DNA of 64,000 nt from Emiliania huxleyi CCMP1516. Its lineage: Eukaryota. The stretch lies in the NCBI RefSeq assembly GCF_000372725.1, contig NW_005201298.1:249393-313392 (forward strand), written 5' to 3'. Both the position numbers and the translations under genes were made by a program. Under the pieces are notes generated by a model. The model was given only the letters and a program-made list of their open reading frames with translations, did no database searches and was not told the origin of the DNA. Positions 15,068 to 63,304 of this stretch are shown one piece after another; position 1 is the first letter of the stretch, and the number at the start of each line of letters is the position of its first letter.

Positions 15068-18000
15068 ATGTATATGCGACTTCACGCGAGCATCCTCGCC
15101 GCGTTCCACCTCCTCCGGCGCTGGCTCACGCGGGTCGTTGGCCCGCGCGCTGCGGCACTACTCCGCCACGTCCACGCTGCCACCGAGCCCCGCGCCGCTT
15201 CGATCGCTGGCCGGCTTGGCCGCATGTTTGTGCGGGTCATGGGACCGAGCGCCGCAGTGGCCGCTCATCACGTGCCCGAGGCGCCCGAGCGGGAGCACAG
15301 CGCGGAGCGGCTCGCTGCGCAGTCGCACCTTCGCCGGTCGATCATTCCGAGCACAGTCACGCGCCGGATCTCTGACGGGCGCTGCGACCCTCGCCGGAGC
15401 AGCGGCCTGCGTCGCCTCCGCCACTCTGAGCCGCCACTCGCCGCCGCCGCAGGCCAATCACGATTGGCGTCTGCTGCATGGCCAAGAAGGCCAAGTCGGG
15501 GCCGATGCTCGAGACGCTGGACCGACTGCAGGCCTTCCGCGGAGAGAGATCGCCGAGAGATCGCCGAGAGGCAGCCGAGCCGAGAGACGGCCGAGAGACA
15601 GCCGAGAGATAGCCGAGAGATAGCCGATAGATCGCCGGGAGATCGCCGAGAGATCGCCGAGAGATCGCCGAGAGATCGCCGAGAGATCGCCGAGAGATCG
15701 CCGAGAGATCGCCGAGAGGCAGCCGAGAGGCAGCCGAGCCGAGAGACGGCCGAGAGACAGCCGAGAGATAGCCGATAGATCGCCGGGAGATCGCCGAGAG
15801 ATCGCCGAGAGATAGCCGAGAGGTGGCCGAGAGACAGATGCAAGAGGACCGGCTGCAGGCCTTCCGCGCCGACGGGCACGCCGAGTTCGCGGTCGTGTCC
15901 TTCGACGAGCGCATGCTGCTCGAGGAGCCGGTCGAGTCGTGGCCCGTGTGCGAGGCGGGTTAACTAGTTATTAATTAGTTATCCGTTATTGAGTAGTGAC
16001 TGATTAGAATTCGTCGTGGCCCGTGTGCGAGGCGCTGATCGCCTTCCTTCTCAGCGGGTGAGTCAGTGATTAATTCAGTGATTAATTAGTGAATTAACTC
16101 CTCCTGGATTAGGCGCTGATCGCCTTCTTCTCCGCGGGGGAGTCAGTGATTAATTAGTGAATTAACTCCTCCTGGATTAGGCGCTGATCGCCTTCTTCTC
16201 GGCGGGCTTCCCGCTGCAAAAGGCGCAGGCGTACGCCACGCTCCGCAAGCCGTTCGTGTTCAACGACCTGCAGATGCAAGAGGCGCTCTTCGACCGGCGC
16301 CTGAATTAATCACTGCCGTCAATGATTAACGAGTCAATATCGCCGTTCATGAATTACTAAGGTGCTCTTCGACCGGCGCGCCATCTACGCAAAGCTCGAG
16401 GGGGTAGGGGTGCCCGTTCCGAAGCACGTCGTGCTCGAGCCGGGCAGCGCTGTGGTCGACGAGCAGGAGGACTACATCGAGGTGGACATGTCCGAGACAT
16501 GTCCGAGACATGTCCGAGACATGTCCATAGGAGGACTACATCGAGGTGGACGGCGCCAGGCTGCAGAAGCCAATCGTCGAGAAGCCAATCTCAGGCGAGG
16601 AGGAAGTGATTAGCTAATCAGCGAATTAACTGGTAGCAGACGCCAATCGTCGAGAAGCCAAGCTCAGGCGAGGACCACGACATCCGCATCTACTACCCGC
16701 GCTCCGCCGGCGGCGGCTCGAAGCGGCTCTTCCGCAAGGTTGGCGACAAGGCGTCCCAGTTCTACCCCGACGAGCATGAGTCGCGCGCCACGTCGGGCGA
16801 GGCGTACATCTACGAGGAGCTGCTTCAGACCGAGGGGACGGACGTAAAGGTGCACGCACACCAGGAGTACGCCCAGCACCGACCACCCGCAGTCACACCT
16901 CCATTCACAGCCTTGTTATTCACACATGGACAGGTGTACGCGGTCGGCCCGGAGTACGCGCACGCCGAGGCGCGCTAGCCGGCCGTCCTCGTTCGCACTC
17001 CTCCGTGTGAACGCATGCTCGTGTGGCGTCTGGTCAGGCGCGCAAGTCGCCGGTCGTGGACGGCAAGGTGATTCGCAACGCGCGCGGCAAGGAGCTGCGC
17101 TACCCGCTCATCCTCAACAACGACGAGAAGGAGATCGCGCGAAAGGTGGTCCTCGCCTTTGGCCAGACGCTGTGCGGGTTCGACCTGCTCCGATCGGAGG
17201 GCCGCTCGTACGTCTGCGACGTCAACGGCTGGTCCTTCGTCAAGGACTCGCACAAGTTCTGGGCCGACTCGGCCAACCTCCTCCGCCAGTACTGCCTGCA
17301 CGCCATCTGCGCGGGAGGTAGATGTCTGGACGAGAGACGCGGCCAGCCTCTGGCCAGCCTGCTCAGTCAGGATCTCTCGCCGGACCAATGTCGAGTGCTT
17401 GCCCGGCACGCCACGCCACGCCACCCCTGCAGCGCACACCGCGTGGAGACGCGCTCCTGCCGGCAGAAGGGCGTCTCTTCACAGCCGTTGCTGTGAACAG
17501 GCCCGCACCACGTGGAGAGGCACCCGCAAGGCGCGCCTCAGGTGCCGCCGCCCGACGCCGCCATTCAGCCGTCTGCCACTCCACAAGCAGACACCGCCCA
17601 CCGTCCCCTCCCCTGCACGCCTCGCAAGGTGCCGCCGCCCAACCGGACGATAAGAGACTCGGTGCTGCAAGACGTGGTGCCGCCCCGCGCCTCGCTGCAA
17701 GCGCCGACCGGCGCCGAGGAGTCGGAGCTGCTCTGCGTGATCGGGCTGACGAGGCACGGCGACCGGACGCCGAAGCAGAAGCTAAAGATGAAGACCACGG
17801 AGCCGCGCCTGCTCGCGCTGCTCGGCAAGAACAAGGACGCGCGCGCGGAGCTGAAGATCAAGAAGATCCGCGCCATGGAGGAGCTCACCCAGATCGTCTC
17901 GCGGCTTGTGGAGGAGAAGCTGCGCGCGGCGGACCCGTCCTCGGACAGGCACGAGGAGGACCTCGACAAGCTCCTCACGCTGACTGTGTGGTAGTAACTG

Positions 18001-21000
18001 CCGGTGCCTCCTCCTCCAGGTACGAGGAGGACCTCGACAAGCTCCTCACGGTGCAGCAGGTGCTGCAGTCGCACCCGTTCTCCGGCATCAACCGCAAGGT
18101 CCAGATCAAGCCCTCGAAGTGGGCTGCTGTACCGGAGGCGGGCTCAGCGGACGGCGGCGCCGCGCCCCCAGCCTCGCGCGAGGTCGCAGTAGAGGCGCTC
18201 TTCATCCTCAAGTGGGGAGGCGAGCTGTGAGCAGCGTCTCTTCACACCTGCAGCTGTGAACAGGCGCTCTTCATCCTCAAGTGGGGAGGCGAGCTGACGG
18301 CGCTCGGGGAGGCGCAGGCCGAGTACCTTGGCGCCAAGTTCCGCAACTCGCTCTACCCGGGGGACGAGGTTGGCGGCGGGGTGCTGCGGCTGCACTCCAC
18401 CTACAGGCACGACCTCAATCAATTAAGGGTCAGTTACGGTTGATGAGGGGTTAATTCAGAGTCACTCCACCTGCAGGCACGACCTCAAGATCTACTCCTC
18501 GGATGAGGGGCGCGTGCAGACGACGGCCGCCGCCTTCACCAAGGGCTTCCTCGACCTCGAGGGCGCCCTCCCCCCCATCCTCGCCTCACTCGTCTCCAAG
18601 GACAAGTCGGCGACGGCCATGCTCGACGACACGAACGAGCAGGGCCGCCTCGGCATGGACAGATCAAAGGCGGTCATCTCGCAGCTGCTCAACTGCCCGC
18701 AGACTACCGCAGGGGCCATCGCCGCGCAAGAGTCGTCCCGCCCCCCCTCGCCGAGCAGCAAGCAGCCGCGCGGACTCGAGCGCGGACTCGAGCATGGCCA
18801 GATCGTGGCGCAGGCATACCCCCCCCCACACATACCTCCCCCGCATCTCCCCCACATCTCCCCCACATCTCCCCCACATCTCCCCCACATCTCCCCCACA
18901 TCTCCCGCGCCAGGCGCCCTCGACGGCGGCGGAGGGCGGCCTCGCCTCCGACTCCCTCCTCTCCGCCTGGCTGAGCGAGAATGCAAAGGCGCCGCGCCAG
19001 GCGCTCGAGCGGCTGCACCAGCTAGTCGAGGAGCTCGAGCGGGAGCTACGCGGGGAGATATGGGGAGATGTGGGGAGATGTGGGGAGATGTGAATAGGAG
19101 CTCGTGCGGGAGCTACGCGCGAGGAGCAGCGCGGGCGGCGGCGCGTCGAGCATCGGCATCCTCGGGCTGCTAGTTCATAGTGAATCACTCATCGAGCAAT
19201 GCATTAATAGGCGCGTCGAGCATCGGCATCCCTCGAGTCCCTTCTCGCGACGTGGCTGTCTCGTCGGGCAAACTTTCCTCCAAGGTTGCGGCACTTGTTC
19301 ACAGCTAGAGGTGTGAAGAGACGATGTTCACAGGCCCTCTCTCCTCCAAGGTTGCGGCACCGCTGATGGTGAGGCTGTCTGCTCGCTGATAGTGAAGAGT
19401 GACCTCTCTCCTCCAAGGTTGCGGCACCGGCGAGGCATTCCGCAGCCAACGGCAAGACGCCGCACCTCCAGCTCGGCCTAAGGAAGGGTGAATTAGGGGC
19501 GAGTTGGGTGTGAGTTAGGCGAGACGCCGCACCTCCAGCTCGGCCGGTGGGCGCAGCTGCACAAGGACCTGTACAGCTCGCGCAAGGAAGTGTTTGACAC
19601 CTCAAAGGTGCCAGACATCTACGACAATGCGCTGTACGACATGGTCCACAACGAGCACCTCGGGCTGCAGGCCCTAGCCGCGCCGGCTCCGAGAAGGGTG
19701 CGAGAGGGCTCCGAGGCGGTCCCGTCACTTCGGTGCGTTGCTGCAGGCTTTGCCGCGCTTGTTCCGCGCCTCGCGCACGCTCGCGTCGTACGTGGTGCCG
19801 CAGGAGTACGGCATCGAGCCGGAGGACAAGGTGACGGTCGGCCTGCAGATCGCGTGGCAGATGCTCGCCAAGCTGCTGCAGGACATGCTTGAGAACGGAG
19901 GAGCGGTTGCCTAGTAATGAGCTGCTGAGGAGGATCGCCCACCTGCCGTAGGACATGCTTGCCGGCATGGACGCAGAACGACACATGGAGGAGACGCGTG
20001 CCTCCGACCGCCCCCCCCCCCTGACATGTCCGAGACATGTCCGAGACATGTCCATAGGAGCGCATGCCTCCGACGCCCCCCTCCGAGGAGCCTTCCGAGA
20101 GCCTTCCGCTCGAGCCTTCTTCGAGAGCCTTCCCCGTAGGAGCGCGCGCACGAGCTGGACCATACCTCCCCCACATCTCCCCCACATCTCCCCCACATCT
20201 CCCCCACATCTCCTCCCCCACATCTCCCCCACATCTCCCCCACATCTCCCCCACACCTCCCCCACACCTCCCCCACATCTCCCCCACATCTCCCCCACAT
20301 CTCCCCCCTGCCTCCCCCGCATCTCCCCGTAGGAGCGCGTGCACGAGCTCGACCCGTCCGCCTTCACCGACGTCAAGTCGAGCTCGCGGCATGTCCGCAC
20401 GCGCCTCTACTTCACGTCCGAGGCGCACATCCTCTCCCTCTTCAGCGACATGTCCGAGACATGTCCGAGACATGTCCATAGGTCCGAGTCGCACCTCCTC
20501 TCCCTCTTCAGCGACATGTCCGAGACATGTCCGAGACATGTCCATAGGTCCGAGTCGCACATCCTCTCCCTCTTCAGCGACATGTCCGAGACATGTCCGA
20601 GACATGTCCATAGGTCCGAGTCGCACATCCTCTCCCTCTTCAACGTGCTGCGCTACGGCCACGAGGTGCTCGCCGCCACCCAGGGGGAGAGGGCGAGCCG
20701 CGGCGTGCAGTGCATCTTCAGCGACGAGGCGCAGATTCCCCGAGATTCCCCGAGATTCCCCGAGATTACCCGAGATTACGGCGTGCAGTGCATCGCAAGC
20801 GACGAGGCGCTCGTCAAGCTCGAGAAGCTCGGCTTCCCCGAGATTCCCCGAGATTACCCGAGATTACCCGAGATTGCGAGAGTACCCGAGAGTACCCGAG
20901 ATCAGGCGCGCGTCAAGTTTGAGAAGCTCGACGTCGGCTACCTCTCGCACATCGTCTTCCGCGTGCTCCACAAGAAGAACGCAGACCCGCAGGTGCCCTC

Positions 21001-21492
21001 CTCGTACGCGGTGCAGGTGCACAGCCGGTGAAGTAGATCTCGTCAGTCGAGCACTGAGCGAGCGCCTGTGTTGACTGACGTGCCCATGACGCGTGGTCGA
21101 CGTCTCGTCAGGTGCTCGTCTCGCAGGGCGTCAACCAGAACATGTCCGCGCCGTCGCGAGGCGGGCCGTGCCAGGCCGAGTGGCACGAGAGGCCGGAGCT
21201 GCTGCCGAGCGACATGTTCATCTCCTCGCGCGACGACCTCACCCTCGAGGACGTCGACTGCTTCTTCTCGTACTTCCTGCGCAGCACGCCGCTCGGACAG
21301 ACCAAGGCGGCGCCGCAGCGGCAGAGCAGCACTCCGTCGGCTAGCAGCACGACACTTAGCTCGGCCCTCGCGTCGGAGAGCTCTATGCAGGCGCGCGCCT
21401 CGCGCGCGCGCCGCGCTTCGGGGCCGCTCGTGCCGGAAGGGGAGGCGACGCCGTGCGTGGTGTCGCGGCGCTGCGCCGGGTCGGAGAGCTGA
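15068..21492 (+). CDS. VIP1: Inositol hexakisphosphate / diphosphoinositol-pentakisphosphate kinase (VIP1/PPIP5K), many exons; start uncertain
   Basis: [135 protein letters not shown]. Confidence 0.95.
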
Positions 21493-21687
21493 TGGGGCCA
21501 TTCGCGACTGAGAACTGCGGTATTTCGTCGATCGATACTTGGAGTGCGAACACCGTGTTTACTTAATTTTGATTGATGCACTACACCGAACTCCCCCTCT
21601 TCGCGTGCGTGTGTGTGTGCGGGACGCCTGCATGTCGTTCTCGTTGAAGCTCCCGCCCGCATCAGTTCAATCTAACACATTCAATCT

Positions 21688-21961
21688 TCAAAAGTACTCC
21701 TCCTCGTCCGCCACCTTGGCGGGAGCGGCGGCGGTGGGGTTCGAAGGGCGCCGCTTCACACCTCCGCCAAACTTGGCCATGATGGCCGCGCGCCTTGCCC
21801 CCGCCGTCTGCGCAACATCCTCCATCTCGCGCCGCGTCTGCTGCTTCCTCGCCGCGACCACCTGAGGGTAAGGTCTAAATACTAAAAGTAAGGGGAGGGA
21901 CCCTCGGATAGGAGCACCATGGCTCTAAAAGTGCAAGGCCAAGTGCGTTGTGGTGTGTGTG

Positions 21962-22011
<50 letters not shown>

Positions 22012-24499
22012 GCGTGTTGTATGTTGTTGTGTGTGCGACCACCTTGGCCGACTTTGCCCACGCCGCGTCGGCCGCGACCTTCGCCTCAGCTGCCGCCTGC
22101 GCGTCCTCTTGCGACGGAGCAATCCCATCCGCCACGGTGGCGGCGTCCTGCGATCTCTGGGCCGACTGCCGGGCTGCATTCAGCCTCGCCGCCTCCGCCG
22201 CCGCCGCCGCCTCCACTGCCGCCCTCGCCGCCTCGGCAGCCACCGCAGCGGTGCGGGCAGCCTCGGCAGCGGCGCGGGTAGCCTCGGCAGCGGCTGCCTC
22301 CGCCGCCGCCTCCTCGGCCGCCGCCGCTGCCGCCGCCTGCCGCTCTACCTCCTCCGACGCCGCCTTCTCGGCCTCGATCCTCGCCGCCTCGGCCGCCGCC
22401 GCCTCCTCCGCAGCCACCCTCGCCGCCTCCGCCGCCTCCGCCTTGACGTCGGCATTGACGGCCGCCTTGGCCCGCTCCTGCCGGCCTCGCGCGACCTCGC
22501 TCTCCTTCTTCCCGCCGCCCTCCTTCGCCGCCGCCGCATGCGCATCCATCTGCATCTCCTCCTCGCCGGGCCAAAGCCGCGGAACCACCGCGAGCATGTC
22601 GACGTCGGGTGCGGCAACGGAGACGGAAGCCACGGACGTCTTCCTCTGAAGGCGCCCTTTCGCCTGGAGCCGAAAGCAACTACCACCACTCCTGTGCAGA
22701 CGCCTCTGAAGACGCGCGCGAACGTGGTCGTGGAGCACCTTGGCCGCTTGGTGAGCTGTGAGAACGGCGTCGAGACTCGCCGGCACCCCTTTTTTCGGCA
22801 GCCCGTGCTCGTCCTTGTCCTCACCGCTTCCGGTGTGCGGCAAGAAGAGCTCAAACTCCGCAAGCATCCTAATGAGGAGCTGCCCCGCCTGGATCTCGGC
22901 GAGCTCCTGGCCCCAGCACCGTCGGGGGCCCGCGCCGAACGGCAGGAAAGCCGCGTGCTTCTCCTCGCGCGTCCGAAGGTGATCGTAGCGCTCGGGCTGG
23001 AACTCTAGTGGGTTGTCGAAGACGCGCGGGTTCTGGCCGATTGCAGTCTTGAAGTACGTGAGGTAGCACTTGGCGGGGATGCGGATCCGCGTTGGAGCCC
23101 GACCCCTTGGCCCCGGAACCTCCATCTGAATGCACTTGTGGATCTTGCGCGCCGAAAACGGGATCGTCGGGTGCAGGCGCAGTGCCTCGTAGAGCACATG
23201 CATCACATCCTTGCAGCCCCGAATGTCCTTCGTCGAGAGTCGTCCTTCAGGCGCCGCCTCCAGCGTGCGTCGCGCCTCCTTCGCGGCGATGCTCTGGCGC
23301 TCCGGGTCGTTCGCGAGCATCAGCATGCACTGCGCCACCGTGTGGGCCGTGCTCTCGAATGAGGCCGCGAGCATGAGCACGAGCTCGTCGTTGATCTCCC
23401 ACTCGCGCATCCCAGCGCTCTGGCGCATGAAGCCGGGAAGTGGCGCGTCGTCGTCGTCCTTGCACTTGAGCGCCATGTCACGGAGGAAGCCGAAGCCCGT
23501 CGTGAAGCTCCGGATGCGGGCGGGCTCGAGCCACATCCAAATTGGCTGATTCGTGCGGCGGGACACCTCGCCCGCGAAACTGTCGACCGCGGCGATTATG
23601 TCGCGTTTCTCCTCCTCTGTCTCGGGGCGCTTGTCGTATAGGTACAAGAACATCGTGTCGAGAGCCCAGCACTGGAGCTCGAAGCCCAGACAGCCGGCGC
23701 GGGCAACTCGTTCTCCCTCATCGTTCCTCCCGTCGTCCCCCGAGCCCCTCCGCCCCCTCCACCTCTGTAGCATCTCCCTCGCGACCGGGTCCACGCGTAG
23801 AGCATGTTGCAAAAGGCCTGTTCGTTCTTGATCTTGCTGATGGCGTGCCTGTTGCTCGAGTGGTGCGCACCCACCGGACACCCCATTAGGGACCCGGGCG
23901 TGATGGTCTTCGTTGGGCGGAGCGAGTCAAAGTCTCCACTGATCACGTCGTGAGGGACGTAATCCGTGTAGACAAAGGGCCGCTTGCCGAGCGGCATGTG
24001 CAGACGGAAGCAAGGTCCGAACTTCTCGTGCAGCTGCGTCAGTGTGTGGTGGCGATCGCCCCATCCGTTCGCGCAGAGATCGGGATAGTTGCCCCACAAG
24101 AAAGAAGGCTTTGGGCCAGGGATGTGTGCGAAGCGGCGGAACTCGCGCAAGCGCTCCACGACGAGTGACCCGATTGTTAGCACGGCGGCTGTCGTGATGC
24201 GCGTTCCAGAATCCCGTGATCAGCCGCGCAGCGTGAAGCGCCACGAACAGCGGGCCAACGACGAGAGCGGCGCCGTACCACAGCGTCCGCAGCAGGAAGT
24301 AGCTGTTTCGACAGGCGTACCGCACGTCCCCGCGAAGGAAGGTTGACGTCAAAATGGAACGCGGGTAGGCTAGCCACAGCGCTCGTGCGAGGGAGCAGGG
24401 CTTGATGCGGCTGCCGTCACAGCCTCCGTGAGCACCGTCGCTCGTTGGGAACGGCTGCCTCGCCAGGCTCGAACTCGGACGTCCAGCCGACAGCAGCAT
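21688..24499 (-). CDS. Cytochrome P450 with long Ala/Glu-rich C-terminal extension; apparent frameshifts near 23794 and 24200
   Basis: IPGPKP hinge, I-helix AASFESTAH, EALRLHP (ExxR), PERY, heme motif FLPFGAGPRRCWG. The last exon ends ADEEEYF* at 21688. The start is tentative. Confidence 0.85.
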
Positions 24500-24507
24500 A
24501 TTGCAAT

Positions 24508-26073
24508 ATGCCAGAGATGGGCGACGTGTTGCCCAGCGCGTCGAGCGTTTTCTGGCTGGGGCTGCTCGCGCTCTGGCTTCTCTTTGCCCTCTGTCTCCTC
24601 CTCCTCCTACTACTACTCGCCTACCGCCCGCCCACATTCGCGTGGCTCTGTCGCAACGGTCTGGCCGCCCTCCGCTGGGTTGGCCTCGGCGTGCTCCCGT
24701 TTTTCCGATTCGCCGTCTCAGCGTCGTGGAGATCCGCCTGCCTCGCTGCAGCCGTGCTCAAGGCGTGCGGCGTCACGTGGCCATTTTCGCGCACGTTCGA
24801 CGAAGTTTGCTTCTTTGCCGGCCGGATGGTACTGCGGTACGCGAGGGCGTGGCTCGCCATCTTCTGGACGCCGTATCACTACGTCTTTATGAGTGGCCTG
24901 CGCTCGCCTCAGCACTGGGATGGGCACAGGTCTCAAGCGGGCATCACCCTCACGCGCCATGTCCGCTACTCCGCGGCGCACCGCGACGAGACGTTGGACG
25001 TCATCCGGCCGGCGGCCCAGCCGGGCCCGACTCCACCGCCCTCGGCTCCGACGCCGATCGTGTATGTGCACGGCGGAGCCTTTGTCGCCGCGTCTTCTGA
25101 GCTTATGCTCCACGGCACATGCTTCCTCGGCCGAGCCGGCTTCACCGTCTTTTCTCTCGACTACCCGCTCTCGCCCGAGCACCGGCACCCAGTCGCGCTA
25201 GTCAGCGTTCTCCGCGGGCTTGCGTTTATACGCGCGGCGTACGGGGTCGAAAGGTGCCTCCTTTTTGGCGACTCGGCCGGCGGGAACCTTGTGTCGATGG
25301 CGGCAGCGATGCTAAGCAACCGAGGCTTGCTCGAGGAGCTCGCACGGCGGACGGGGGAGCCGCTGCTCGAGTTCAAGTACCCGGCAGTCGAGAGGGTGGC
25401 GCTGCTGTACGGCTTTCTCGACTCTGAGGCCCCGCTTGAGGGCGCGTCATGGGTTGTCTCCCTCGGCTTCCGCTTCGTCCTCGACTGCTACGCCCCGCGC
25501 GGCGTTGACTCGGACATGCCCTACACGTTCCTGGCGTTGCGCGACGGCATCGCCACCTTCCCGCCCACGCTCCTGCTGGCGGGCGAGGCGGACCCGATCT
25601 TCCCCTCAACGTACGCGTAGCAGCCCAGCGCTGCCGCGCGCCCCGTGAAGCTGCTACGCCCGTCCTTTAGGCTCCGAGCGCGCGACATGCTCGCTTCCAA
25701 GGGCGTCGATGTCATGTACCGCGCCTACCCAAGCACGCACGCCTTTTTGGGCTTTCCTCGCTCGTGGCCTCTGCCGAGCGAGTTCCAGCAGTCCTCCGCC
25801 GACGCGATGGCCGCCATCCTTGCCTTCGTGCGCGGCGAGCCGCTGAGCGACAAGCTCGCCCCGATCCCGGCGGTGCCTCTCCTCGACCGCTTCCTCGGGG
25901 TGTGGGAGGCGTCGCTCCTCGTCGGCCTCGCCCCCCTTTTGCTGCTTCTGGTGAGCGGCCCCTTGTTCCCGCTCACCTTGGTCCTGTGCTGCTTCCTCCT
26001 AGTACTGGTGGGGCCTGTCGGCGGCAACCTCCTTTTTCGACAGATGCACGGCAAGTTCCCCGAGCATTGGTGA
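24508..26073 (+). CDS. Membrane-anchored GDXG/HSL-family lipase/esterase; intron 25611-25670
   Basis: VYVHGGAF, LDYPLSPEH, GDSAGGNL, AGEADPI, STHAF; hydrophobic N- and C-terminal segments. Confidence 0.9.
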
Positions 26074-26521
26074 TCGTGAAGGGGGAGCTGAGTCTCCTGA
26101 GACGAACGTGTAAAGAAGAATTCAAGAAAAAGAACTCTCTCGCACAGCACACAGGTTCGAAGAAGAATTGTCCACAAAGAGAAAGGTCGCACACGGATTA
26201 CAAGGGAGGGGCATCCAGTATGCATAATGCAATAACAACAAGCGTTCTGCATAATGCAATAACAACAAGCGTTCTTCGTTGTTGTTATAAAACAAACACA
26301 CACCCGCGGGCCCGGGTAGTAAAAAAAGAAAGACAAACGCAATCGACGACGGCGGCGGACAGGATGAAACAGCAGGAGAGAGAACGACGAGAGTGAGAAG
26401 ACCGCGAGGCGGCATGAAGCAATGATGGTCGCTGCGAGAATGGGCGAGAAGCTGTGGAGAGAGATAGCCTCCAGCAGCACCCCCCCCCCCCCCTCGGTGC
26501 ACAAGTGATAGTGTCTCCGGC

Positions 26522-29377
26522 TCACGCGTTCTCCGTTCGAGAGCTCCCCGAGAGCGACGCCAGGCCCGGGGCGCCGTCGAGGAGCGCCGCCCCACCTCCT
26601 CCCGCCTCACCTCCTCCCGCCCCACCTCCTCCCGCCCCACCTCCCGCCCCTGCTCCCGCCCCTGCTCCCGCTCCTCGCCCGGCCGGGAGGGAGGAGGATG
26701 CCTCCGGGCATGGAGGCGCCGCCGCCGCGTCTCGCCCCGCGCAAATGAGGGGCGAGGCGCGAGGCAGCGGCGGCGGCAGCATGGCGCAAGCGGCGAGGGG
26801 CGGCGAGAGGGAGAGCTGGAGAGGCAACTCGGCATTCGGCGAGGAGGAGAGGCGCGGGGAGAGGCGGGGCGAGAGGCGCGGGGAGAGGCGGGGAGAGAGG
26901 TGGGGAGAGAGGTGGGGAGAGAGGTGGGGAGAGAGGTGCGGGGAGAGGCGAGCTGATGGCGTCCCAAACGGCGGCTCGAACGCGCCGAAGGGAGGCGCGC
27001 TGCTGGTCGGCGAGCCGCCCGACCGGCCGCACGAGCCCGGCCGGCTGCACGAGCCCGACCGAGTGCCGCGCGCAACGCTGCTCGCCGCGCCGATCGAGAT
27101 TGGGGCGGAGCCGCTGCCGCACTGCGGCGGCGTGGCGTGCGACGCCGTCGGGCGGGGAGGGCGGGCGGCGAAGCTCGGCGACGGCGCCGCGGAGAGCTGC
27201 GCGGGCGAGGCGGCGAGGGCGGCGGGCGAGTTGGCGGGAGGGTGGTGCGCTGGAGTGGCGGGGAGGGAGGAGAAGGTTCGGCGGAGGGAGTCGAGCTGCT
27301 CGGAAAAGTCGTCCACTGAGCGGGCGAGCGGCGAGGTGCCCAGCAGGTCGTCGGAGGGGTCGGGCCTGCTCACGAGTAGGGGTGAGTGATGGAGCGGTCG
27401 GACGGGAGAGAAGACTCGGGCCCTCGGTGGTGTGTGTTCCTCGAAAAGAGCTGCAGCGACGGCGCGTGCGATACCTCGAGAAGACACGAGGACGTGTCAC
27501 CATCATCACCGACGAGTCTCACTCTCATTCTCGTGCGAGCGCCTCGTCCAGGAAGGAGCCGAGCACAGCCTCGTGTCTCGTGGAGGCAGCCAGGCTGCCG
27601 CACTGCGACGCGCCTGCTGCGGCGGCGCCGCCGCCTCCCTCCGCCTCGCCCGCCTCGCCCGGCGCTCCTTCCTCGTCCATCAAGAAAGGGAGCTCGTCGA
27701 GCTGCCTAGCAGCAGCAGGACACGCCCGCACTCAACTTGCCATTCTTCCTCCGGAGCGGCGGCAGGGACGCTGATCCAGGCTGCCTCACGCCGCCAGAGA
27801 AGGAGGTGGAGCGGCGCCCGCCTGCCCGCCCGCCGTCCACGCTGCCCGCACCGGCGGCGGCCTCCAGCGCGCGCGGCGACCCCGCCACGCCCCCGCACGC
27901 CCCCGCCACGCCCCCGCACACACCGCCGAAGACGTCGATCACGGGCGGCGGCTCAGGCGCGCCGCGCCCAGAGGCGCAGAGTGCGGCGGCGGAGGGGGGT
28001 GCGGCGGAGGGGGAGGAGGTCACAGGCTTGGCCGAGGCGCTCGGCGGCCCCGCGGGGCTGGAGGCGAGCGAGCAGTCGGCGGCGGCGGCGGCGTTGCTGC
28101 TGCTGCCGCCGCCGGCGGCGGCGGCGGCGCTGCTGGCGGCGGCGCTGCTGGCGGCGGCGGCAGTGTGCGGCGCGTGCATGGAGGCGGCGGCGTGGATGGC
28201 GGCGAGTTCGGCGTTGGAGGAGCCTACGAGCTGGGCAGGCCAGCCTCAGGGAGCGGTGCCTCGTGCAGAGTGTTCGGAGCACCGCGTGGGTAGTAGCGAG
28301 GTAGTGGCGAGGTAGTAGGGAGGCGAGTACAGCGGACTGCGTGGTCTCGCGAGCGGCAGTGTGGAGACGAGGAGGAGGAGGCGGTGTTGGGGCTTCTAGG
28401 GTGCGAGAGGAGCCTCCGCTGAGCTCCGCGAGTGTGAAGGGCGAGCCAGGCCCTCCCTCTGCGGGAGAGTGCCGGGCAAGCGGGCCGGTTCCATGGCCGC
28501 TGGAGGAGGGCGGCGGCACGACCGGCACCGGTGGAGACGGCGCGTGCGGCGCCGAGGCGGGGCGAGGGAGGAGGCCGAAGCGAGGGTTGGAGCCGTCTGC
28601 GCCGAGGGCGGCCTCGTCGAGCGTGGCGACGGCGGGCGGCTGCCTCGCCCCCTCCGTCGGCAGGTAGTTTGCGATGAGCGCCGCGCTCATCATCCGATCG
28701 GAGGAGCAGCGGACGGCGGCAGCGGCCGGCCGAGCAGTGCGGGTGAAGAGGGAGGGGGGGCGGTACGAGACGGCAATGCGGAGCTTGCCGTGGGTGGAGT
28801 CGGGAGGCGAAAAGGCGTGCTGCTGCGGGCTCACCCCCGCCGCAAAGTCGAGCGGCGCCGCCTCGGGGCTGGCCTCGGAGCTGCGTCCGCCGTGCGGCCC
28901 GCCGATGCAGACGCGGAAGCCGAGCGCTGGCGCGTCGGAGGCGTGTCCGAGGCGGCCGAGGGAGGAGGCGAGGCGGTGGGCGGGCATGAGGCGGAGGAAG
29001 GCGGCGAGCGAGCGGAGCAGCACCATGAACCGCTTGTAAAACGTCGGCCACCCGATCGCCTCCGGCGCGTGCGGTGCCGGCTCGTAGCGCAGTGTCCACC
29101 GCTCGAGAAGCACGAGATTAGGCTCGTTGGGCTGGGCGCCGACGGCAGCGCGCACCGCGGAGGAGGACGTGTCGATGAAGATGTCGAGCTGGAGCGGCTG
29201 CGAGATGCGCTGCTTCCACCCCTCGAGCCGGTCACGGACGCAAGCGACCTCCTCCGACTCGAGGTTGAACCAGTGGTTTGGAGTGCCGCGTCCGAGAGGC
29301 ACACGCGCACGCAGGACGAGCTCGAGCGTCTTCTGGACGCAGTTTCGCACAACGAGCTGCAGCTTCTGCGCCTCCAT
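26522..29377 (-). CDS. ATG13: Autophagy protein ATG13 (HORMA domain plus disordered tail), multi-exon
   Basis: KTLELVLRAR, NHWFNLE, PLQLDIF, VLLERW, FYKRFMVLLRSLAAFLRLMPAHRL, then an S/P/A-rich tail containing DELPFLMD. Confidence 0.85.
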
Positions 29378-29466
29378 GCGCGCGGCCGGCCACAAGGGCG
29401 GGCGGGCAGGGCTTAGCGGGATGAGGCGCACGGTTTTCTTTTTCCACGGCCTCCCACCCCACCGCC

Positions 29467-29517
<51 letters not shown>

Positions 29518-29760
29518 ACCGCCTCCTTCTCCACCGCCTCTATTCGGTCAACCTCGCGGCGCATGCGGAAGCTGCTCGACAGGCGACTTCATTGCGATGA
29601 TTCACGAGAAAACTCCCTCGCAGGGGGGAAAAGATATTAACAATGAAGGCGCTCTCAAAAAGACTGCACTCCAAGTGCTCCAAGTGCTCCAAAAAGAATT
29701 TTACGAAAGAACTCTCTCGAAAAAAGAATTTTTCATGACGCGGCTCCGTAGCTTGTCCGG

Positions 29761-29855
29761 CGGCTAGCGCATCACACACCTCTCCTTAAAATCCCTGTGT
29801 GGTGGCGGCGTGCCGTCCTCCCATCCCTCCCTTGGTTGTCCGTTTTCTTTCTTTC
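29761..29855 (+). mobile_element. 5'-truncated non-LTR retroelement tail (family A)
   Basis: Near-identical to 50662-50760 and ends in (TTTC)n. No clear TSD. Confidence 0.8.
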
Positions 29856-30558
29856 GCTCGGCGGGAGCTCCGCCGCCACCAACGCCGAAGCACGCCGACG
29901 CGCCAAGGTCTCGTCCGACGCAGCGCGCAAGGCGGCGTTCCACGCCCGCGGCTCGCAATACTTCATCTCGAGCCCCGGCGTCAGATACTCCTACGAGTGG
30001 CTCCGCCCCTGGGCCAATAACGAGGCAGCCAAAGCTGTCGACGCCGAGTTCGGCAGCCGATTCGCCTTAGTTACAACTGAAGGAGGGGGCGCGGCTCGGA
30101 GATGGCAAGGCACGGCGAGGGCAAACGTGCGCGGCTATTATGACGCTTTTAGGGGCTCCAAAATCTCCTTTTCAGTGGTAAGCGCCACCTGGCACCTCGC
30201 GCCGTGCCCCCCAGCCGCGTGTGCGATCGCCCACGGATCCGGGGCGGGGGATGGGAGCCCGAAACGTCCACGCGCAAGTATGCTCGGAGGCTCGTCAGAA
30301 TGGTTTTTCAAGCGTTGTGACTTGTGTCATCGTGCCACAAAACGACCCCTGGAATTGCGACTCGCCGCTCGTTTCCTCTCCCGCTGTGATTCTGTTGCGT
30401 GTGTGGAGAAGTTTACCTTACCTTACCTTACCTTTTACGACTACGTATGGCGTTTGAGCGCGCGCTCTATAGTCTCGAGAGTGTAAGGCGTTATAGTCGC
30501 TCACTGACAGCCTCAGGTGGCACACTCTCCCAAAATTGCCAGCGAGGGCCGCCGGCAC

Positions 30559-32398
30559 TCACTGACTCGGTCCCAGCGGCGCCAGCCAAGGGGAGAGATG
30601 CCCCTCCGCCATCTCCCAGACGCGGCGGCCAAACGCCTCGTCGCGGGCGGCGGGCGCGCACGCGACGGGCGCGCACCGCTCGAGGTAGGCGCCGCGCAGC
30701 GATGAGACCTGTTCACAGCCAGCGGCGTGAAGAGACGCCGTTTACAGCAGTCTGGCAGTGTCTAGGAAGGAGACGTCGTCGCTGCCGGCAAAGACGACTG
30801 TCTAGGAAGTGTCTAGGAAGTGTCTAGAGGTGTCTAGGAAGCGTCTAGGGGCGGGGAGGAGACGTTGTCGCTGCCGGCGGCGAAGACGGTCGTCGCGGCC
30901 CCGTCGGCGAGGGGCGGCTGGAGGAAGCGGAAGAGGGGCGAGGCGACGGCGTAGAGCAACCGGACGGGCGCGGGGAAGTTGCGAGTGACGTCGGTGAGTG
31001 CGTTGGCCTAAGACTTGTCCTCAGGCTGACTGGACCAGCCCTCCCTCCTCGCGTCACGGCGGTGAGGGCGCCGGCCGGGTGCAAGCTCACACACACCACG
31101 CCGCTCGCGCCCTCGCGCCGCTGCAGCTCCGCCGTCAGGGCGACCTACTCCCGGCGCGACCTCGGCGCGTTCTCGGCGTGCTCCCGCGCGTCTGCAGCTC
31201 AGCAGTCCGGGCCCGGCCTGCGCGAGCTTTGAGCGCGCGTACGCGGGGAAGAGCGAGTAGGAGGCCTCGCTCATCGGGTCGGCGAGCAAGGTGGCGGGGT
31301 CTCCGTAGTGGTGCAGACAGGAGGCGACCTGCGAGCATGGGCTCGGGCGATCTCGGGAGATCTCGGGCGATCTCGGGAGAACTCGGGTGATCTGAGGTCA
31401 TCCCCGGGTGATCCCGGGAGATCTCGGGAGATCTCGGGAGATCTCGGGAGATCTCGGGAGATCTCGGAAGATCTCGGGTCCGTGGCGGCGACCGAGACGA
31501 CGCGGCCTCGCGAGCGGCGCAGCAGCGGCAGCAGCAGGCGGGCGAGGAGGTGGTGGCCTAAGGTCATCAGCTCGCTGAGAACTCATCGACTAGTTCATAC
31601 GCAGCAGCAGCAGGGCGAGAGAGGTCGTGGCCGAGGGCGTGGCAGGCGAGGTTGGCTTCCCAGCCGTCGCGCGTCACACGCCTCTCTGGGTGCATCGCCC
31701 CCGCGTTGCAGATGAGCGCGTCGCACCTCCCGCCGGTAGCGAGGAGCTGCGCGGCGAAGGCTCGCACGGAGGCGCAGCTCTCCAGGTCGAGAGCGAGGAA
31801 GAGCGCGCGTTCGGGCGGCGCACCCGAGGCGCTGCAGGCGGCGCGGCACGCGGCGCGGCCTCGGGCCTGCTCAGCAAAGTAGCTCGTTGATGGACACACA
31901 GCTTGCAAGGCGGCGAGGCAGCGCGCCTCGCTGCGGCAGGCCAATATAACACATAATAAATGTAATATAGCGCGCCTCGCTGCGGCAGGCAAAGATGACT
32001 GTCGCGCCGCGCTCCAGCAGCTGCTCCGCCGTCGCGAGCCCGAGGCCGGCGGAGCTGCCCGTCACCACGACTGTACGGCCAGTGAGTGGCGGAAGCGGAG
32101 GCAGAGGGATGCGGACGAGCAGGCGGTGGGTCGCGAGGCAGGCGAGCCCACCCGCGGCGCCCAGCAGGGCCTCGTGCCCAACTGCGGCCGGCGCCACACG
32201 AGAGAGGTACAGCAACGAGCCCGTGGCCACGACGGCGACCGCGGCCCGCCTGGCGCCGGCCTCGCCCGAGACGGCGCTAAGCAGGAAGACGCCCAGCGCG
32301 TAGAGAAATGCGAGGAGGCAGGCGGCTGCTGCTGGCTTCGCGGCGACGCCGAAGAACGTCACGGCGAGGGCGAGGGCAACGACGAAGTCGAGCTGCAT
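30559..32398 (-). CDS. Short-chain dehydrogenase/reductase (retinol-dehydrogenase-like) with N-terminal TM segments, multi-exon
   Basis: VVVTGSSAGLG, LDLESCASVRAFA, LICNAG, LGHHLL, YARSKLAQ (YxxxK), VSLHP, GAYLERC. Confidence 0.9.
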
Positions 32399-32686
32399 CG
32401 GTCGGGCAAGGCTGGGGAGAATTTTACCATGCAAGCCCTATCACAGCAGACTGGCTCGGACTGGAGGACCACTGGAGAAGTGGATTCGGGCCTGGAACAA
32501 AGAATTCTTTACCTAGGTGGATATCATTTGGTGGCCGCGTTGGGTAGCGAGGATTGGTGTGACGCGATCCACGCAGGCGTGTTTTCTGACGGCCGACCGT
32601 CAGTGCACGGAGTTGCCCCTTCTCCGACTGCCCCGGCTAGTTCCCGAGGTCGCGCGGGGCTGACCCCTGGCCCTGCGTCCCCCAAA

Positions 32687-32790
32687 AGAAAGAAAGAAAA
32701 GAGACAACCCAAGGGAGGGATGGGAGGACGGCACGCCGCCACCACACAGGGATTTTAAGGAGAGGTGTGTGGTGCGCTAGCCGTCGCCCA
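32687..32790 (-). mobile_element. 5'-truncated non-LTR retroelement tail (family A) with ~15 bp TSD
   Basis: Matches 50655-50760 in reverse and is flanked by CCTGCGTCCCCCAAA at 32672-32686 and 32791-32805. Confidence 0.85.
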
Positions 32791-33120
32791 CCTGCGTCCC
32801 CCAAAGAATTCATCGAGGCCAAGTAAATTTCTCGCTCGACATTAGGCACGGGACTGGCGCGCACTGGCCCTAACACAGGTAAAGAATTCGTGCTGATCTA
32901 AAGACGGTTTTTCATTCGCGAGCGTGTGTCCCCCTGGAGCCTGGTGTCCCCGCTCGCGCCGCATGGCGCCTTAGCCCTTCGTACACATGCGGCCCGCATT
33001 TATGGCTTCGACGCGATAAAGAGTCGGGTACAACCATAAACTACGCTGAGTCTCGAACATCAATGTCCCACCCCGGCTCCGACCCGCACGGCGGCACGCC
33101 CACGAGCCTGGACTACGCGC

Positions 33121-34019: not shown

Positions 34020-37000
34020 ATGTCCGGCCTACGCGTGCGCACGCCCAAGAAGGCGCGCGCGCGCCCTCCAGTGCCGCTGCCACGCTGCCGACCGCGCGCG
34101 GGCCTCGGTCGCTCACCGCCGCCCGCCCTCTCCCGCAGGCAAAGGACAACTACGACGAGGCGATCGAGGAGTACGAGCGGGAGCAGAACCCCAAGGCGAT
34201 CAAGAATCGCGTGCGCAAGGCGCAAAAGGCGGCGGAGCAGGCGCTCGTGACGGGCGACAAGATGGCGCGCTGCGGCGCGGCGCTCAAGCTGCTCGGCTTG
34301 CGCGACGACGCGTACTGGTTCCAGGAGCCGGTGCCGGTGGGCGAGGTGCCCGACTACCTGGACATCGTCGAGGAGCCGATGGACTTCCGCACCATCGCCG
34401 GCCGCCTCGCCGGCGGCGAGTACGGCGACGACGCGCTCGCGTTTGCGTCGGACGTGCGGAAGGTCTTTACGAACGCCGTCAAGTACAACTGGTCGCCCGA
34501 CCACCCGTGCAACATCGCTGCGCGGGCGGGGCTGCGCGAGTTCGAGCAGCTCTTCGCGCGCGCGAACGGCAACGGCTCCGCCCCCAAGCCGCCCCCGCCC
34601 GCCGCCCAGCCGCACAAGAAGCGCCACCGCGATGGCGGAGGAGGAGCCGTGGCCGGCAGCAGCAGCGGCGCGTCGGCGGCGGCGGTCGTCGGCGGCGGCG
34701 GCGGGGCGTCGGCGGCGGGCGGGGGCGGAGGCGGAGGGGGCGTCAAGCGTGCGCGCATGCGCGGCTCTGCCTCCGAGGCTGGCTCGGCGGACAGAGACCG
34801 CGAGCCGACCGGGCGCCGTCCACGAACCTTCTCGGAACCTTCCGGTAGGCTGGGTCGGCGGACAGAGACCGCGAGCTCATCGCGGGTCTGGGCGAGTACC
34901 TCGTGTCGTGCGGCGGCGCGGAGGGGCTGGTGGACGGCTGGTACACCCGGACGGAGGTCCGCAAGGGAGGGGGCACGGCCGGCACGTTCGACACGTACTT
35001 CTTCACGCCCGCCGGGAAGCGCTTCCGATCTCGCGCCGAGATCGCGCGGTTCTTCCAGCTCGAGGCGGCGCCGGCGAAGTCTGCCAAGTCGCAGGACGCC
35101 GAGGAGAGGAAGGCGCTGAAGAGCGCCGAGCGCGAGGCGAAGAAGCAGCAGAAGGAGGAAGCTGCGGCGGCGCGCCAGGCGCAGCTCGACGCGGAGAGGG
35201 CGCTGCGAGAGCGGTGCGCAGTCCGCCGGCGAGGCGCTGTTGGCTGGTCAGTGTGGGTAGCGGCGCATTGTGAATGAACAGGTACCCCGTCCCCGACGAG
35301 CGGCTGGCGGAGGAGGAGCCGCACGAGCCTCCTCTCGGCCCTCGCCCGACACCGCTGCCAGCAGGAACCGGCGCCGTGCCCGCCTCGGCTGTCGGCGACT
35401 TGCTGCAGGAGACGCGTCCCAGTCCGCTCCCCAGACACCGGGCAGGCCCTTCCCCAGACACCGGACAGGCCCTTCCCCAGACACCGGGCAGTCCCTTCCC
35501 CAGACACCGGACAGGCCCTTCCCCAGACACCGGACAGGCCCTTCCCCAGACACCGGGCAGGCCCTTCCCCAGACACCGGACAGGCCCTTCCCCAGACACC
35601 GGACAGGCCCTTCCCCAGACACCGGACAGGCCCTTGCCCAGACACCGGACAGCCCTCTCGGCCTGCTGCAGGTTTGCGACTTCCTGCGCGCACTCGGCCC
35701 CCAGCTGCAGCTGCCCTCGTACTCGCCTTCGGAGCTCGCGGCGGCACTGGTCGCGTCGGAGGGCGAGGCTGATGAATAGCTGAGTAACAGCTGAGTAACA
35801 GCCAGCGAATTAATGACAGGTCGAGTCGGAGGGCGAGCCGAACCCGAAGCTCGCTGACCTGACGCAGGCTTGCACTCTTGTGTGGTAGGACAGTGTATTG
35901 CAGCATCTCATAGCCGGCTTGGCGCAGGCTTGCACTCTGCCTTGCAGCAGCGATCATAGCTGGCCGGCCTGCCGCAGGCGCTGCTGCAGCTCGTGCTGAC
36001 CGACAAGTCGCTCGGCGAGTGGTGGGGCGTGCGGGAGGCGCCGAACGGGCCAAAGGCGGCCTTTGCGAGGGCGTCGTCCGACTCGAAGAAGGTCAAGTGG
36101 TGGGAGGCGGACGCGAAGCCGCTGCTCAAGGTCGACCTCGAGGCGATCCTCGCGTCGAGCGAGCCGACGTCGCGCACTCGCCGCTGGGTGGCGCAGCTCG
36201 AGACGGTTGCTCCGATGCGCACAAACACCGGCGTCCCGATCCGGCAAGCGCTGGTTGCGGCGAGGGCCATCTCCTCCGACGGCGAGGTGCGGAGGTACCT
36301 CGACCGCGCAATCTCGCACTGGAAGGGCAACGCCGCGGGCACGACAAAGTTCGCCGCTCTTTGGCTCGCGGCCCAGGTCCGGCGGAGCCGGCCGCAGATC
36401 TTCACGGCGGAGGGGATGGCGGCGGTCGAGGCGGAGGAGGACGGCGGCGTGGACACGTCCTTGGACACGTCCGAGGACGTGCCCCCGCCCGAGGAGGAGG
36501 AGGACGGCGCCTCGGAGCTCGCGCCGTCGGAGGTTGCTAATTAATATTAATTAGCTATTAATTAGCCTCGGAGCTCGCGCCGTCGGAGGTTGCTCCGTCG
36601 GAGTTAATTAATAGCTCATTTTTAGCTCTGTGATCGTTAGTAGCTCATTGCTTGATTACAGGCTGCTCCTTCGGAGCTAATTAATAGCTCATTACTAGCT
36701 CATTGATCGCTCATTACTAGCTCACTGCTTGATTACAGGCTGCTCCGTCGGAGCTAATTGATAGCTCATTACTAGCTCATTGATCGCTCGTTAGTAGCTC
36801 ATTGCTTGATTACAGGCTGCCCCCTCGGAGCTAGTTGATAGCTCATTACTAGCTCATTGATCGCTCATTAGTAGCTCATTGCTTGATTACAGGCTGCCCC
36901 CTCGGAGCTAGTTGATAGCTCATTACTAGCTCATTAATCGCTCATTATAGTTCATTGCTTGATTACAGGCTGCCCCCTCGGAGCTGCCGGACGAGCTCGA

Positions 37001-47000: not shown

Positions 47001-47281
47001 TGAAGGGGACGTCTCGCGGCAACCTGTACTCTGTGCTGCGCAACGACCCCAACCTCTCCTCCGACGACCTGCAGCGCTTCACGAGCCAGCTCTGCCACCT
47101 CTTCCAGCGCTGCAAGAAGATCGTCTCCAAGGTTGCCCCAAACTACAACGCTCACCTCGCTGCGGAGATGTGGGGGCTCAAGGAGGAGCGCGAAAGCTTC
47201 TCCGACACGGCCTCGGTCAGCAGCGACGCCGCCGCATGCGACGTGCACGAGCGCCTGAAGACGCGTCTCTTCTACACATGA
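43469..47281 (+). CDS. AGO: Argonaute (PAZ, MID, PIWI) with extra N-terminal domain and P/Q linker; introns include 44699-44776 and 45122-45218
   Basis: GTLGKPVRLFSNF, SVQDFFRLRYGIELKHP..VPMELC, KLNLK, LGCDVHH, RQECI, PQRIICYRDGV, HHGMKGTSR, LCHLFQRC, YNAHLAA. Confidence 0.95.
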
Positions 47282-49918: not shown

Positions 49919-50760
49919 ACGACAAAATAGCGCCCGTGATTGCCTGCACGCTACCCGCACTCACGGAATCCATACCCGAAAGAAAGAGAGGGGAGCTCGC
50001 GGGCGGGAGAGGTGACGAGTGAACTACAGGTAGTGGGGAAGGCAGCCTCGATTGCCATACAGACATGGGTGCGGAACAACGACAAGACCAAGGCACGGGC
50101 AGAGGAACGAGAGAAGAATATAGGGTGGATAAAGCGCCTGTTCACGGCATGGAGGGTGAGCCACACCGAACGTACCGAACGTAGAGCTGAGCGGAAGGCA
50201 GCGGGGGAAGACGACTCCGAGGAGGACGAACCAGTGGAAATTCAGTTGTCAGATGTCACGATGCATCCGAAGGGGACCCCAGCGCCGGCATCATCCGTAG
50301 AGGCACGAGTGTTCGAAGAGAGAGTGGACCTGAGCAACAACATGACCTGCAGGCAAATGCTCGGAGTGGGAGTCAGAAATGTGGTCCTTGCGCGAGGGGA
50401 GCTCGATAGACTCGAGGGGCCAGGATACGCCGCGAGGAGGACGGAGTTGCGCCGAAAGGCGAAAGAAGCCGCGAGAACAAGGGACCGGCAGGCGGCGGCG
50501 TCGCAGGACGAGACAGAAGAGAACGACGCGACAGAGGAGGAAATGACAAGGGAGAGAACGACGAGAGTGGGACGACCGCGAGGTGGCATGAAGGTTGCAG
50601 CGAGAAGCGGCGAGAGACTGCGAAGAGAGATAGGAAGAGGCGGACGCCCAAGGGTGGGCGACGGCTAGCGCATCACACACCTCTCCTTAAAATCCCTGTG
50701 TGGTGGCGGCGTGCCGTCCTCCCATCCCTCCCTTGGGTTGTCTGTTTTCTTTCTTTCTTT
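49919..50760 (+). mobile_element. 5'-truncated non-LTR retrotransposon (family A, ~840 bp) with 11 bp TSD
   Basis: Purine-rich ORF ending RVGDG* at 50668, shared 3' UTR and (TTTC)n tail; AAGGCCAACCC at 49908-49918 and 50761-50771. Confidence 0.85.
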
Positions 50761-50909
50761 AAGGCCAACCCGTGCAGTCGAAGACGAAGAGAAGTAAAGA
50801 GAAAAAGAAAAGTTAAAAAAACAGGAAAAGTAAATGGGAGCGGAACAAAAATAGAAAAAAAAAATCCCGCTGTGCACGGCGTGCCAACCTCCTGCACCCC
50901 CCCCAGTCT

Positions 50910-63271: not shown

Positions 63272-63304
<33 letters not shown>

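What the first reader, a model, noticed from the sequence alone, without database searches (positions are those of the whole stretch)
17471..30738. A shared 30 bp hairpin cassette supplies the acceptor of unrelated introns
Seen: GCGTCTCTTCAC-N7-GCTGTGAACAG at 17471-17500 and 18234-18263 (VIP1 intron 3' ends), at 30738-30709 (minus strand, SDR intron 3' end) and inverted at about 19296-19323. The TTCAC(A)/(T)GTGAA arms pair while the middle varies. Inference: a tiny mobile or templated donor sequence, introner-like, that carries a splice acceptor.
Basis: partly seen in the sequence, partly recalled or inferred. Interest (0 to 1): 0.7.

Follow-up and report, generated by a model that had tools for sequence, protein, structure and literature searches.

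The report
Mobile splice-acceptor cassette builds algal introns
In the alga Emiliania huxleyi, a 40-base repeat that carries a ready-made intron end usually sits between two copies of about 25 bases of exon, forming an intron of about 68 bases; it likely spreads by being copied into DNA breaks, which would help explain how this alga gains introns and why most of them start with GC.

Summary
Four copies lie in the window (0 by chance) and 123+ loci in marine metagenomes. The window is Emiliania huxleyi. The unit is about 40 bp, not 30, with 11-bp direct terminal repeats and no longer parent. It ends in AG (141/148), is followed by GT/GC (115/137; baseline 16%), and usually sits between two copies of about 25 bp of exon at a period of 59-78 nt. 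The upstream copy gives the donor and the cassette the acceptor (AG precedes the donor in only 19/67). RNA contigs confirm splicing in VIP1; the inverted copy is spliced through the duplication's own AG|GT. The same duplication-plus-filler build marks 22/27 VIP1 intron units, and two non-cassette ones differ in presence between strains. Best reading: templated insertion at staggered breaks, filtered by splicing and NMD (in-frame stops in 17/18 3n introns). A DNA, RNA or Replitron-like carrier is unresolved. The hairpin is no stronger than shuffles. Introner screens probably listed the family as 37-nt introns, without the long duplication. New variant of a known kind.

The parts
15478..21492 (+). 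VIP1/PPIP5K gene (inositol pyrophosphate kinase; true start lies upstream of 15478), about 27 intron units
   Evidence: Pfam RimK and His_Phos_2; exon 100% identical to EMIHUDRAFT_427613; RNA contig offsets constant over 17040-19673
17309..17500 (+). 192-nt GC-AG stacked intron: an older part plus a 69-nt duplication-plus-cassette unit at 17432-17500
   Evidence: 39 nt between RNA pieces 17308 and 17627; P0002 matches this model; duplication 17/21
17471..17500 (+). cassette copy 1 (left repeat degenerate); supplies the acceptor AG, since the upstream exon ends in CT
18195..18263 (+). 69-nt GC-AG intron = 33-nt copy of the next exon's start (donor) + cassette
   Evidence: RNA joint 18192 to 18262; 33/33 identity
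18224..18263 (+). cassette copy 2, full 40-bp form with both 11-bp direct repeats
19295..19334 (-). cassette copy 3, inverted relative to VIP1, inside intron 19285-19350 whose splice sites both come from the duplicated AAG|GT
   Evidence: transcript-derived protein P0002 keeps the first copy's codons
19351..19417 (+). 67-nt duplication-plus-filler intron without the cassette; absent from DNA runs X2 and X3
   Evidence: DNA joint 19335 to 19403 in 2 of the 3 non-RNA runs laid
16829..16852 (+). empty site: L057 carries a duplication-plus-filler insert here, and X2 and X3 contigs break here; the window and X1 lack it
30709..30748 (-). cassette copy 4, acceptor of the last intron (about 30709-30774, 66 nt) of the SDR gene; preceded by a piece of the neighbouring intron's 11-bp repeat
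   Evidence: RNA piece starts at 30703
30559..32434 (-). short-chain dehydrogenase gene
   Evidence: Pfam adh_short in two exon frames; ORFs

Best explanation
The 40-bp cassette is a multicopy intron 3' end that sits between two copies of about 25 bp of exon and makes a spliced intron of about 68 nt, and it is likely copied from an existing cassette intron into a staggered DNA break by host repair. Shown: fixed AG end, loose 5' end, exon duplication starting at G|GY, donor from the duplication and acceptor from the cassette, splicing in VIP1, and strain presence/absence of sibling introns. Inferred: the break duplicates the exon piece, and templated synthesis fills the gap from a neighbouring or distant intron tail, sometimes with a few bases of the donor's flank. 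Selection then keeps inserts that splice cleanly at 60-78 nt and that stop translation if retained. The cassette would spread because it frees the process from needing AG|GY in the exon: any G|GY will do. TTCAC 20 nt before the AG fits a recalled branch-point consensus (untested).
For: Duplication in 92/135 copies at score >=10 vs 0.8% in swapped controls; all 95 periods fall in 59-78 though 42-150 was searched. G at -1 in 62/67 but AG in only 19/67; duplication and insert lengths anticorrelate (rho -0.84) around a 68.6 +/- 3.5 nt total. The same build with unrelated fillers (AT-rich, 10-11-bp repeats, unique) marks 22/27 VIP1 units vs 6.6% of random positions, and 57 of 144 period-60-80 events in the loci lack the cassette. 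This points to a host process. Neighbouring copies share flank bases (L028, L030, L031) and cluster: 19/111 loci hold a second site, 1 per 5.2 kb. In-frame stop on retention in 17/18 3n vs 13/25 other introns, p=0.003. Two presence/absence differences in 3 kb. Staggered-break neointrons are known in Daphnia, with 4-12-bp repeats (PMC4202315).
Against: Three copies judged antisense (window 19295, L028, L091), where splicing cannot select the cassette's end, still end at or within 1 nt of its AG. This suggests an intermediate with a defined end, though my search pattern hides 3'-truncated copies. Same-locus copies are overall no more alike than random pairs (24 pairs, p=0.53), so most copying is not local. 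About 25 bp is longer than the repair repeats reported in Daphnia. No cassette-bearing site was seen empty in another strain (0 of the 3 VIP1 sites in X2, X3, X4). Gain versus precise loss between the repeats is not polarised. Reading frames come from a crude codon model (51 of 67 called).
Confidence: 0.5

Rival explanations
1. RNA carrier: the 3' tail of an excised intron (free end at AG) is reverse-transcribed at a nick by a LINE/Penelope-type or repair RT. The second nick about 25 bp away gives the duplication and 5' truncation gives the loose end. Every filler family would be some intron's tail.
For: Fixed 3' end and loose or truncated 5' end. Extra 5' bases traced to a neighbour's intron. 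Other fillers in VIP1 also share their last bases at the AG across different sites. Non-LTR elements make variable, sometimes long duplications (PMC9977147). Antisense copies keep the precise end.
Against: No poly(A) tail and no RT among 31 window ORFs. Copying would have to pass the branch point or use debranched RNA. Full-length 68-nt copies stacked on a new duplication are rare. AT-rich unique fillers look newly synthesised.
Confidence: 0.27
2. A non-autonomous Replitron-like (HUH Rep) micro-transposon: 11-bp terminal direct repeats, one precise end at a short target, one fuzzy end carrying parental flank, and a variable target duplication.
For: These four signatures are those of Replitron-1 in Chlamydomonas (PMC10288648 section 9). 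Replitron proteins are reported from two other haptophytes. The family is dispersed with a few dominant variants.
Against: 40 bp is shorter than one 52-53-bp Replitron terminus. The hairpin is not significant. No Rep partner was found (window only; no genome held). It does not explain identical duplications around cassette-free fillers. Duplications and fuzzy ends are atypical of Replitrons outside Chlamydomonas.
Confidence: 0.15
3. No mobility: introns arise by plain tandem exon duplication, and the cassette is a convergent or gene-converted splice signal.
For: Tandem duplication at AG|GT is a known route (PMC3443670), and most VIP1 donors are preceded by AG.
Against: 40 bp at 90% mean identity in 148 unrelated sites, inverted copies with no splicing role, and 48/67 sites lacking the upstream AG.
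Confidence: 0.06

Closest known systems
Introners listed for E. huxleyi CCMP1516 (Gozashti 2022, PMC9860276 Table S6; 2025, PMC12130899 Dataset sd07)
   Same: Three 2022 families have mean length 37 and GC 54.05, 55.35 and 57.20%, mostly GT donors, 476 copies in all, 82-86% in genes. The cassette's inner GT..AG stretch is 37 nt with consensus GC 54.05%, so this is probably the same family. 2025 fam4 (n=45, 'LTR', co-opt both) and fam24 ('10bp terminal direct repeats', co-opt 5' carry 3') are also candidates.
   Different: No sequences were visible, so identity is inferred. Those tables give a 37-nt intron and no TSD, an unknown one, or one of 2-4 bp. RNA here shows a 69-nt intron with a 33-bp duplication.
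Introners that carry the 3' site and co-opt the 5' site from a TSD (Symbiodinium; Gozashti 2022)
   Same: Same division of splice sites.
   Different: TSDs there are 3-9 bp with TIRs. Here the duplication is 25 +/- 7 bp, about a third of the intron, and the terminal repeats are direct.
Daphnia pulex neointrons from staggered double-strand breaks (Li 2014, PMC4202315)
   Same: Polymorphic new introns with an exon-derived direct repeat and AT-rich or unknown filler.
   Different: Repeats are 4-12 bp and the filler source is mostly unknown. Here repeats are longer, total length is fixed near 68, and one filler is a family of probably over a thousand copies.
Intron gain by tandem genomic duplication (reviewed in PMC3443670)
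   Same: Splice sites are drawn from a duplicated exon segment; applies to the inverted copy and most VIP1 introns.
   Different: A foreign filler lies between the copies and, for the cassette, supplies the AG.
Replitron-1/N1 of Chlamydomonas (Craig 2023, PMC10288648)
   Same: Terminal direct repeats, one precise and one fuzzy end, variable TSD.
   Different: 910-3600 bp, Rep-encoded, depleted in exons; not reported to make introns in the passages read.

Membership tests
Introner | Many similar copies at unrelated intron positions | tested here: met
   148 copies in 112 sources after dropping 12 duplicate loci, 90% mean identity. Similarity covers only the 3' 40 nt of the intron.
Introner | Insertion is spliced out without changing the mRNA | tested here: met
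   RNA joint of 69 nt and constant offsets. Checked in VIP1 only; indirect for SDR.
Introner | Empty orthologous site showing recent insertion | tested here: inconclusive
   0 of 3 VIP1 cassette sites empty in X2-X4; two cassette-free sibling introns differ in presence.
MITE-type DNA transposon | Terminal inverted repeats and a short fixed TSD | tested here: not met
   Terminal repeats are direct; duplication length varies 10-42 bp.
Replitron | Short terminal direct repeats | tested here: met
   11-bp repeats.
Replitron | Rep HUH transposase in an element sharing the termini | not testable with these tools
   No genome held; none among 31 window ORFs.
Replitron | Subterminal hairpin | tested here: inconclusive
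   A stem can form but z is 0 to -1.3.
SINE / non-LTR retroposon | Poly(A) or simple-repeat tail and small-RNA-derived head | tested here: not met
   No tail; no Rfam match at E<=1 in 17400-19500.
SINE / non-LTR retroposon | Fixed 3' end, 5' truncation, variable TSD | tested here: met
Staggered-break neointron (Daphnia type) | Exon-derived direct repeat around an insert | tested here: met
Staggered-break neointron (Daphnia type) | Derived allele shown against an outgroup | not testable with these tools
   No eukaryotic outgroup genomes were available.

The most novel reading that the evidence does not exclude
Most introns of E. huxleyi are young and made by one still-active process in which intron 3' ends behave as replicators. 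A 40-nt tail, carried as excised intron RNA or as a minimal Rep substrate, inserts with a roughly 25-bp exon duplication. It would be among the smallest intron-generating mobile elements, and it would explain the species' GC-donor majority, its 70-nt intron mode and its repeat-filled introns at once.
Probability: 0.3. Interest if true: 0.9.

Novelty: new variant of a known kind. Interest (0 to 1): 0.73.

Why it matters
The origin of new spliceosomal introns is a long-standing question, and clear cases are few. Here one gene shows about 20 introns with a birth scar, and two differ between strains, so the process can be tested in culture collections and mutation-accumulation lines of a globally dominant alga. 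Donors taken from GC-rich exon would account for the 56-65% GC donors that Feldmesser 2014 put down to base composition alone; cassette introns with matching donor copies show GC 29, GT 26, GA 3 of 67. It also matters in practice: the reference VIP1 model reads through these duplications (P0001 vs P0002), so gene models and introner calls for this genome are likely wrong at many such sites.

Tried and rejected
Viral contigs: 0 matches, so no sign of a viral vector. Rfam: 0. A functional hairpin was rejected; arm conservation is partly built in by the search pattern. A longer parent was rejected within 32 nt upstream and 15 nt downstream. A 29-bp satellite as general source has weak support: 4/148 copies repeat their own middle upstream vs 1.4 expected, p=0.04, and L067 holds 2.4 units. 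General local copying was not supported (p=0.53). Of the 6/23 pairs sharing flank, L003 and L004 are probably tandem-unit copies and L011 may be chance. I considered the inverted copy's own TTCACAG as acceptor (19268-19333) and rejected it because P0002 keeps the first copy's codons; one search used that placement, at the same period. Two of the 27 VIP1 units (16567, 19675) had approximate donors. The end counts are inflated by self-matches and are used only qualitatively. Summed contig depth (about 38,000 vs about 57 in X2) suggests over a thousand close copies but is not a copy number. The protein atlas did not answer. Earlier findings of this scan: none. Read et al. 2013 is not held.

Full report
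Observation. The motif occurs four times in the window, at the places given, against 0 in 100 shuffles. Three copies lie within 1.9 kb in a VIP1/PPIP5K gene and one in an SDR gene. A VIP1 exon is 100% identical to EMIHUDRAFT_427613, so the organism is Emiliania (Gephyrocapsa) huxleyi. No genome was held.

Anatomy. In 152 unique contexts the conserved unit runs about 40 bp: an 11-bp repeat, 18 bp, and the same 11-bp repeat ending in AG. Nothing is conserved beyond it except GY after the AG. After dropping 12 loci that repeat another locus or the window, 148 copies remain. Of these, 141 end in AG and mean identity to the majority is 90%. GT or GC follows in 115 of 137 usable copies, against 16% after CAG generally. 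The 3' end is fixed; the 5' end is loose, truncated in some copies and extended by a few to 20 bases in others. The arms can pair, but five folded sequences score z 0.0 to -1.3.

The missed feature. The bases after the AG are repeated upstream of the cassette in 92 of 135 copies (score >=10; 0.8% in swapped controls). All 95 periods at score >=9 fall between 59 and 78 nt although 42-150 was searched. In 67 clean primary insertions the duplication is 24.9 +/- 7.0 bp and the period 68.6 +/- 3.5. G precedes the first copy in 62, but AG in only 19. So the first copy gives the donor and the cassette gives the acceptor. A codon model called 51 of 67 frames: 43 sense, 8 antisense, most of the latter weak.

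Splicing. An RNA contig skips 18193-18261, equivalent to intron 18195-18263. A ten-intron model keeps a constant offset to that contig from 17040 to 19673 and matches the transcript-derived protein P0002, whereas the reference model P0001 reads through several duplications. Copy 1 ends a 192-nt stacked intron whose last 69 nt are an old duplication plus cassette. The inverted copy lies in intron 19285-19350, with both sites from the duplicated AAG|GT. The SDR copy ends a 66-nt unit, supported only by where an RNA piece starts.

The wider pattern. The window's repeat catalogue shows many exon repeats 66-82 nt apart with other fillers: AT-rich stop-laden stretches, 10-11-bp tandem repeats, unique sequence. 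22 of 27 VIP1 intron units carry a junction duplication against 6.6% of random positions; two units had approximate donors. Most of those donors are preceded by AG, so the cassette widens the usable targets from AG|GY to G|GY. Two cassette-free units differ between genomes. Intron 19351-19417 is absent from X2 and X3. An insert at 16829-16852 is present in L057 and indicated in X2 and X3, but absent from the window and X1. The three VIP1 cassette sites were filled in X2-X4. Direction is not polarised; the repeats also make precise loss easy.

Selection. Retention would meet an in-frame stop in 17 of 18 frame-preserving introns and 13 of 25 others (Fisher p=0.003). This is the pattern expected under nonsense-mediated decay (recalled knowledge). 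The cassette holds TGA in two frames. That TTCAC is the branch point is inference from a recalled consensus.

Mechanism. Shared scars around unrelated fillers point to a host process: a staggered break, templated fill, then selection for a spliceable unit near 68 nt (0.5). Neighbouring copies sometimes share flank bases, once in opposite orientation (L028, L030, L031), and 19 of 111 loci hold a second site. Against this, same-locus cores are not closer than random (p=0.53). Three antisense copies keep the exact end, which favours a defined intermediate: an excised intron tail copied by an RT (0.27) or a Replitron-like micro-element (0.15), whose reported signature is similar. No RT or Rep was seen in 31 window ORFs.

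Literature. Gozashti 2022 (PMC9860276; passages and supplement rows) lists five E. huxleyi introner families, three of mean length 37 and GC 54.05-57.2%. The cassette's inner GT..AG stretch is 37 nt with majority GC 54.05%, and 118 of 148 copies have both ends, so the family was probably caught as a mis-annotated 37-nt intron. Gozashti 2025 (PMC12130899; passages and supplement rows) lists three families, with 2- and 4-bp TSDs called for two. No sequence was found in its 14 text supplements; figures and external consensus files were not seen and may bear on novelty. Feldmesser 2014 (PMC4028052; passages) reports 56-65% GC donors and frequent retention, and ascribes them to GC content. Also read: Li 2014 (PMC4202315; passages), Yenerall 2012 (PMC3443670; passages), Craig 2023 (PMC10288648; one part of seven, passages and section 9), Lopez-Cortegano 2023 (PMC9977147; passages). 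PMC13344279 and bioRxiv 2024.05.26.595999 (passages) had nothing on this. Ten searches found no description of long exon duplications around E. huxleyi introns. Read et al. 2013 was not held; its report of 10-11-bp repeats in introns is recalled.

Verdict. Real, correctly read as an acceptor-bearing multicopy insert, and part of a broader intron-building pattern that I could not find described. It works like an introner; it fails the MITE and SINE tests and is untested as a Replitron. New variant of a known kind, interest 0.73.

Noticed in passing
window 15955-16180, 20416-20613, 36557-36941, 39032-39434, 39738-39990; L058: Whole duplication-plus-filler units are themselves tandemly amplified two to five times; RNA removes 226 nt in one skip at 15953-16178.
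   Followed up: partly
window 29744-29855, 32685-32792, 50632-50763: A separate dispersed repeat of about 110 bp, up to 98% identical in opposite orientations, with very high summed contig depth; possibly a MITE or SINE.
   Followed up: no
L066 223-300; L057 16-57: Fillers built from a 15-bp-period repeat of the same GCTGTGAA motif, suggesting slippage of the acceptor repeat.
   Followed up: no
window 17949 vs L058; window 16283 vs 16362: Donor copies read GC where the exon copy or another strain reads GT, so some GC donors arose after insertion.
   Followed up: no
window 16467, 19031, 19882, 19991, 20140: Five VIP1 introns appear to use GA donors.
   Followed up: partly
window 16480-16530, 20020-20057, 20445-20613: One 11-bp-repeat filler with the same last bases recurs at three different VIP1 sites, suggesting local spread within a gene.
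   Followed up: partly
L056 794-866; L078 36-102: Another shared non-repetitive filler motif at two unrelated loci.
   Followed up: no
window 45045-47278 (+): Argonaute/Piwi gene (PAZ and Piwi domains).
   Followed up: no
window 63159-63335: Telomere-like G-rich degenerate repeat inside the window.
   Followed up: no
window 16640-16745: Further structural differences in X2 and X4 (joint going back 35 nt; piece ending at 16745), possibly more polymorphic introns.
   Followed up: no
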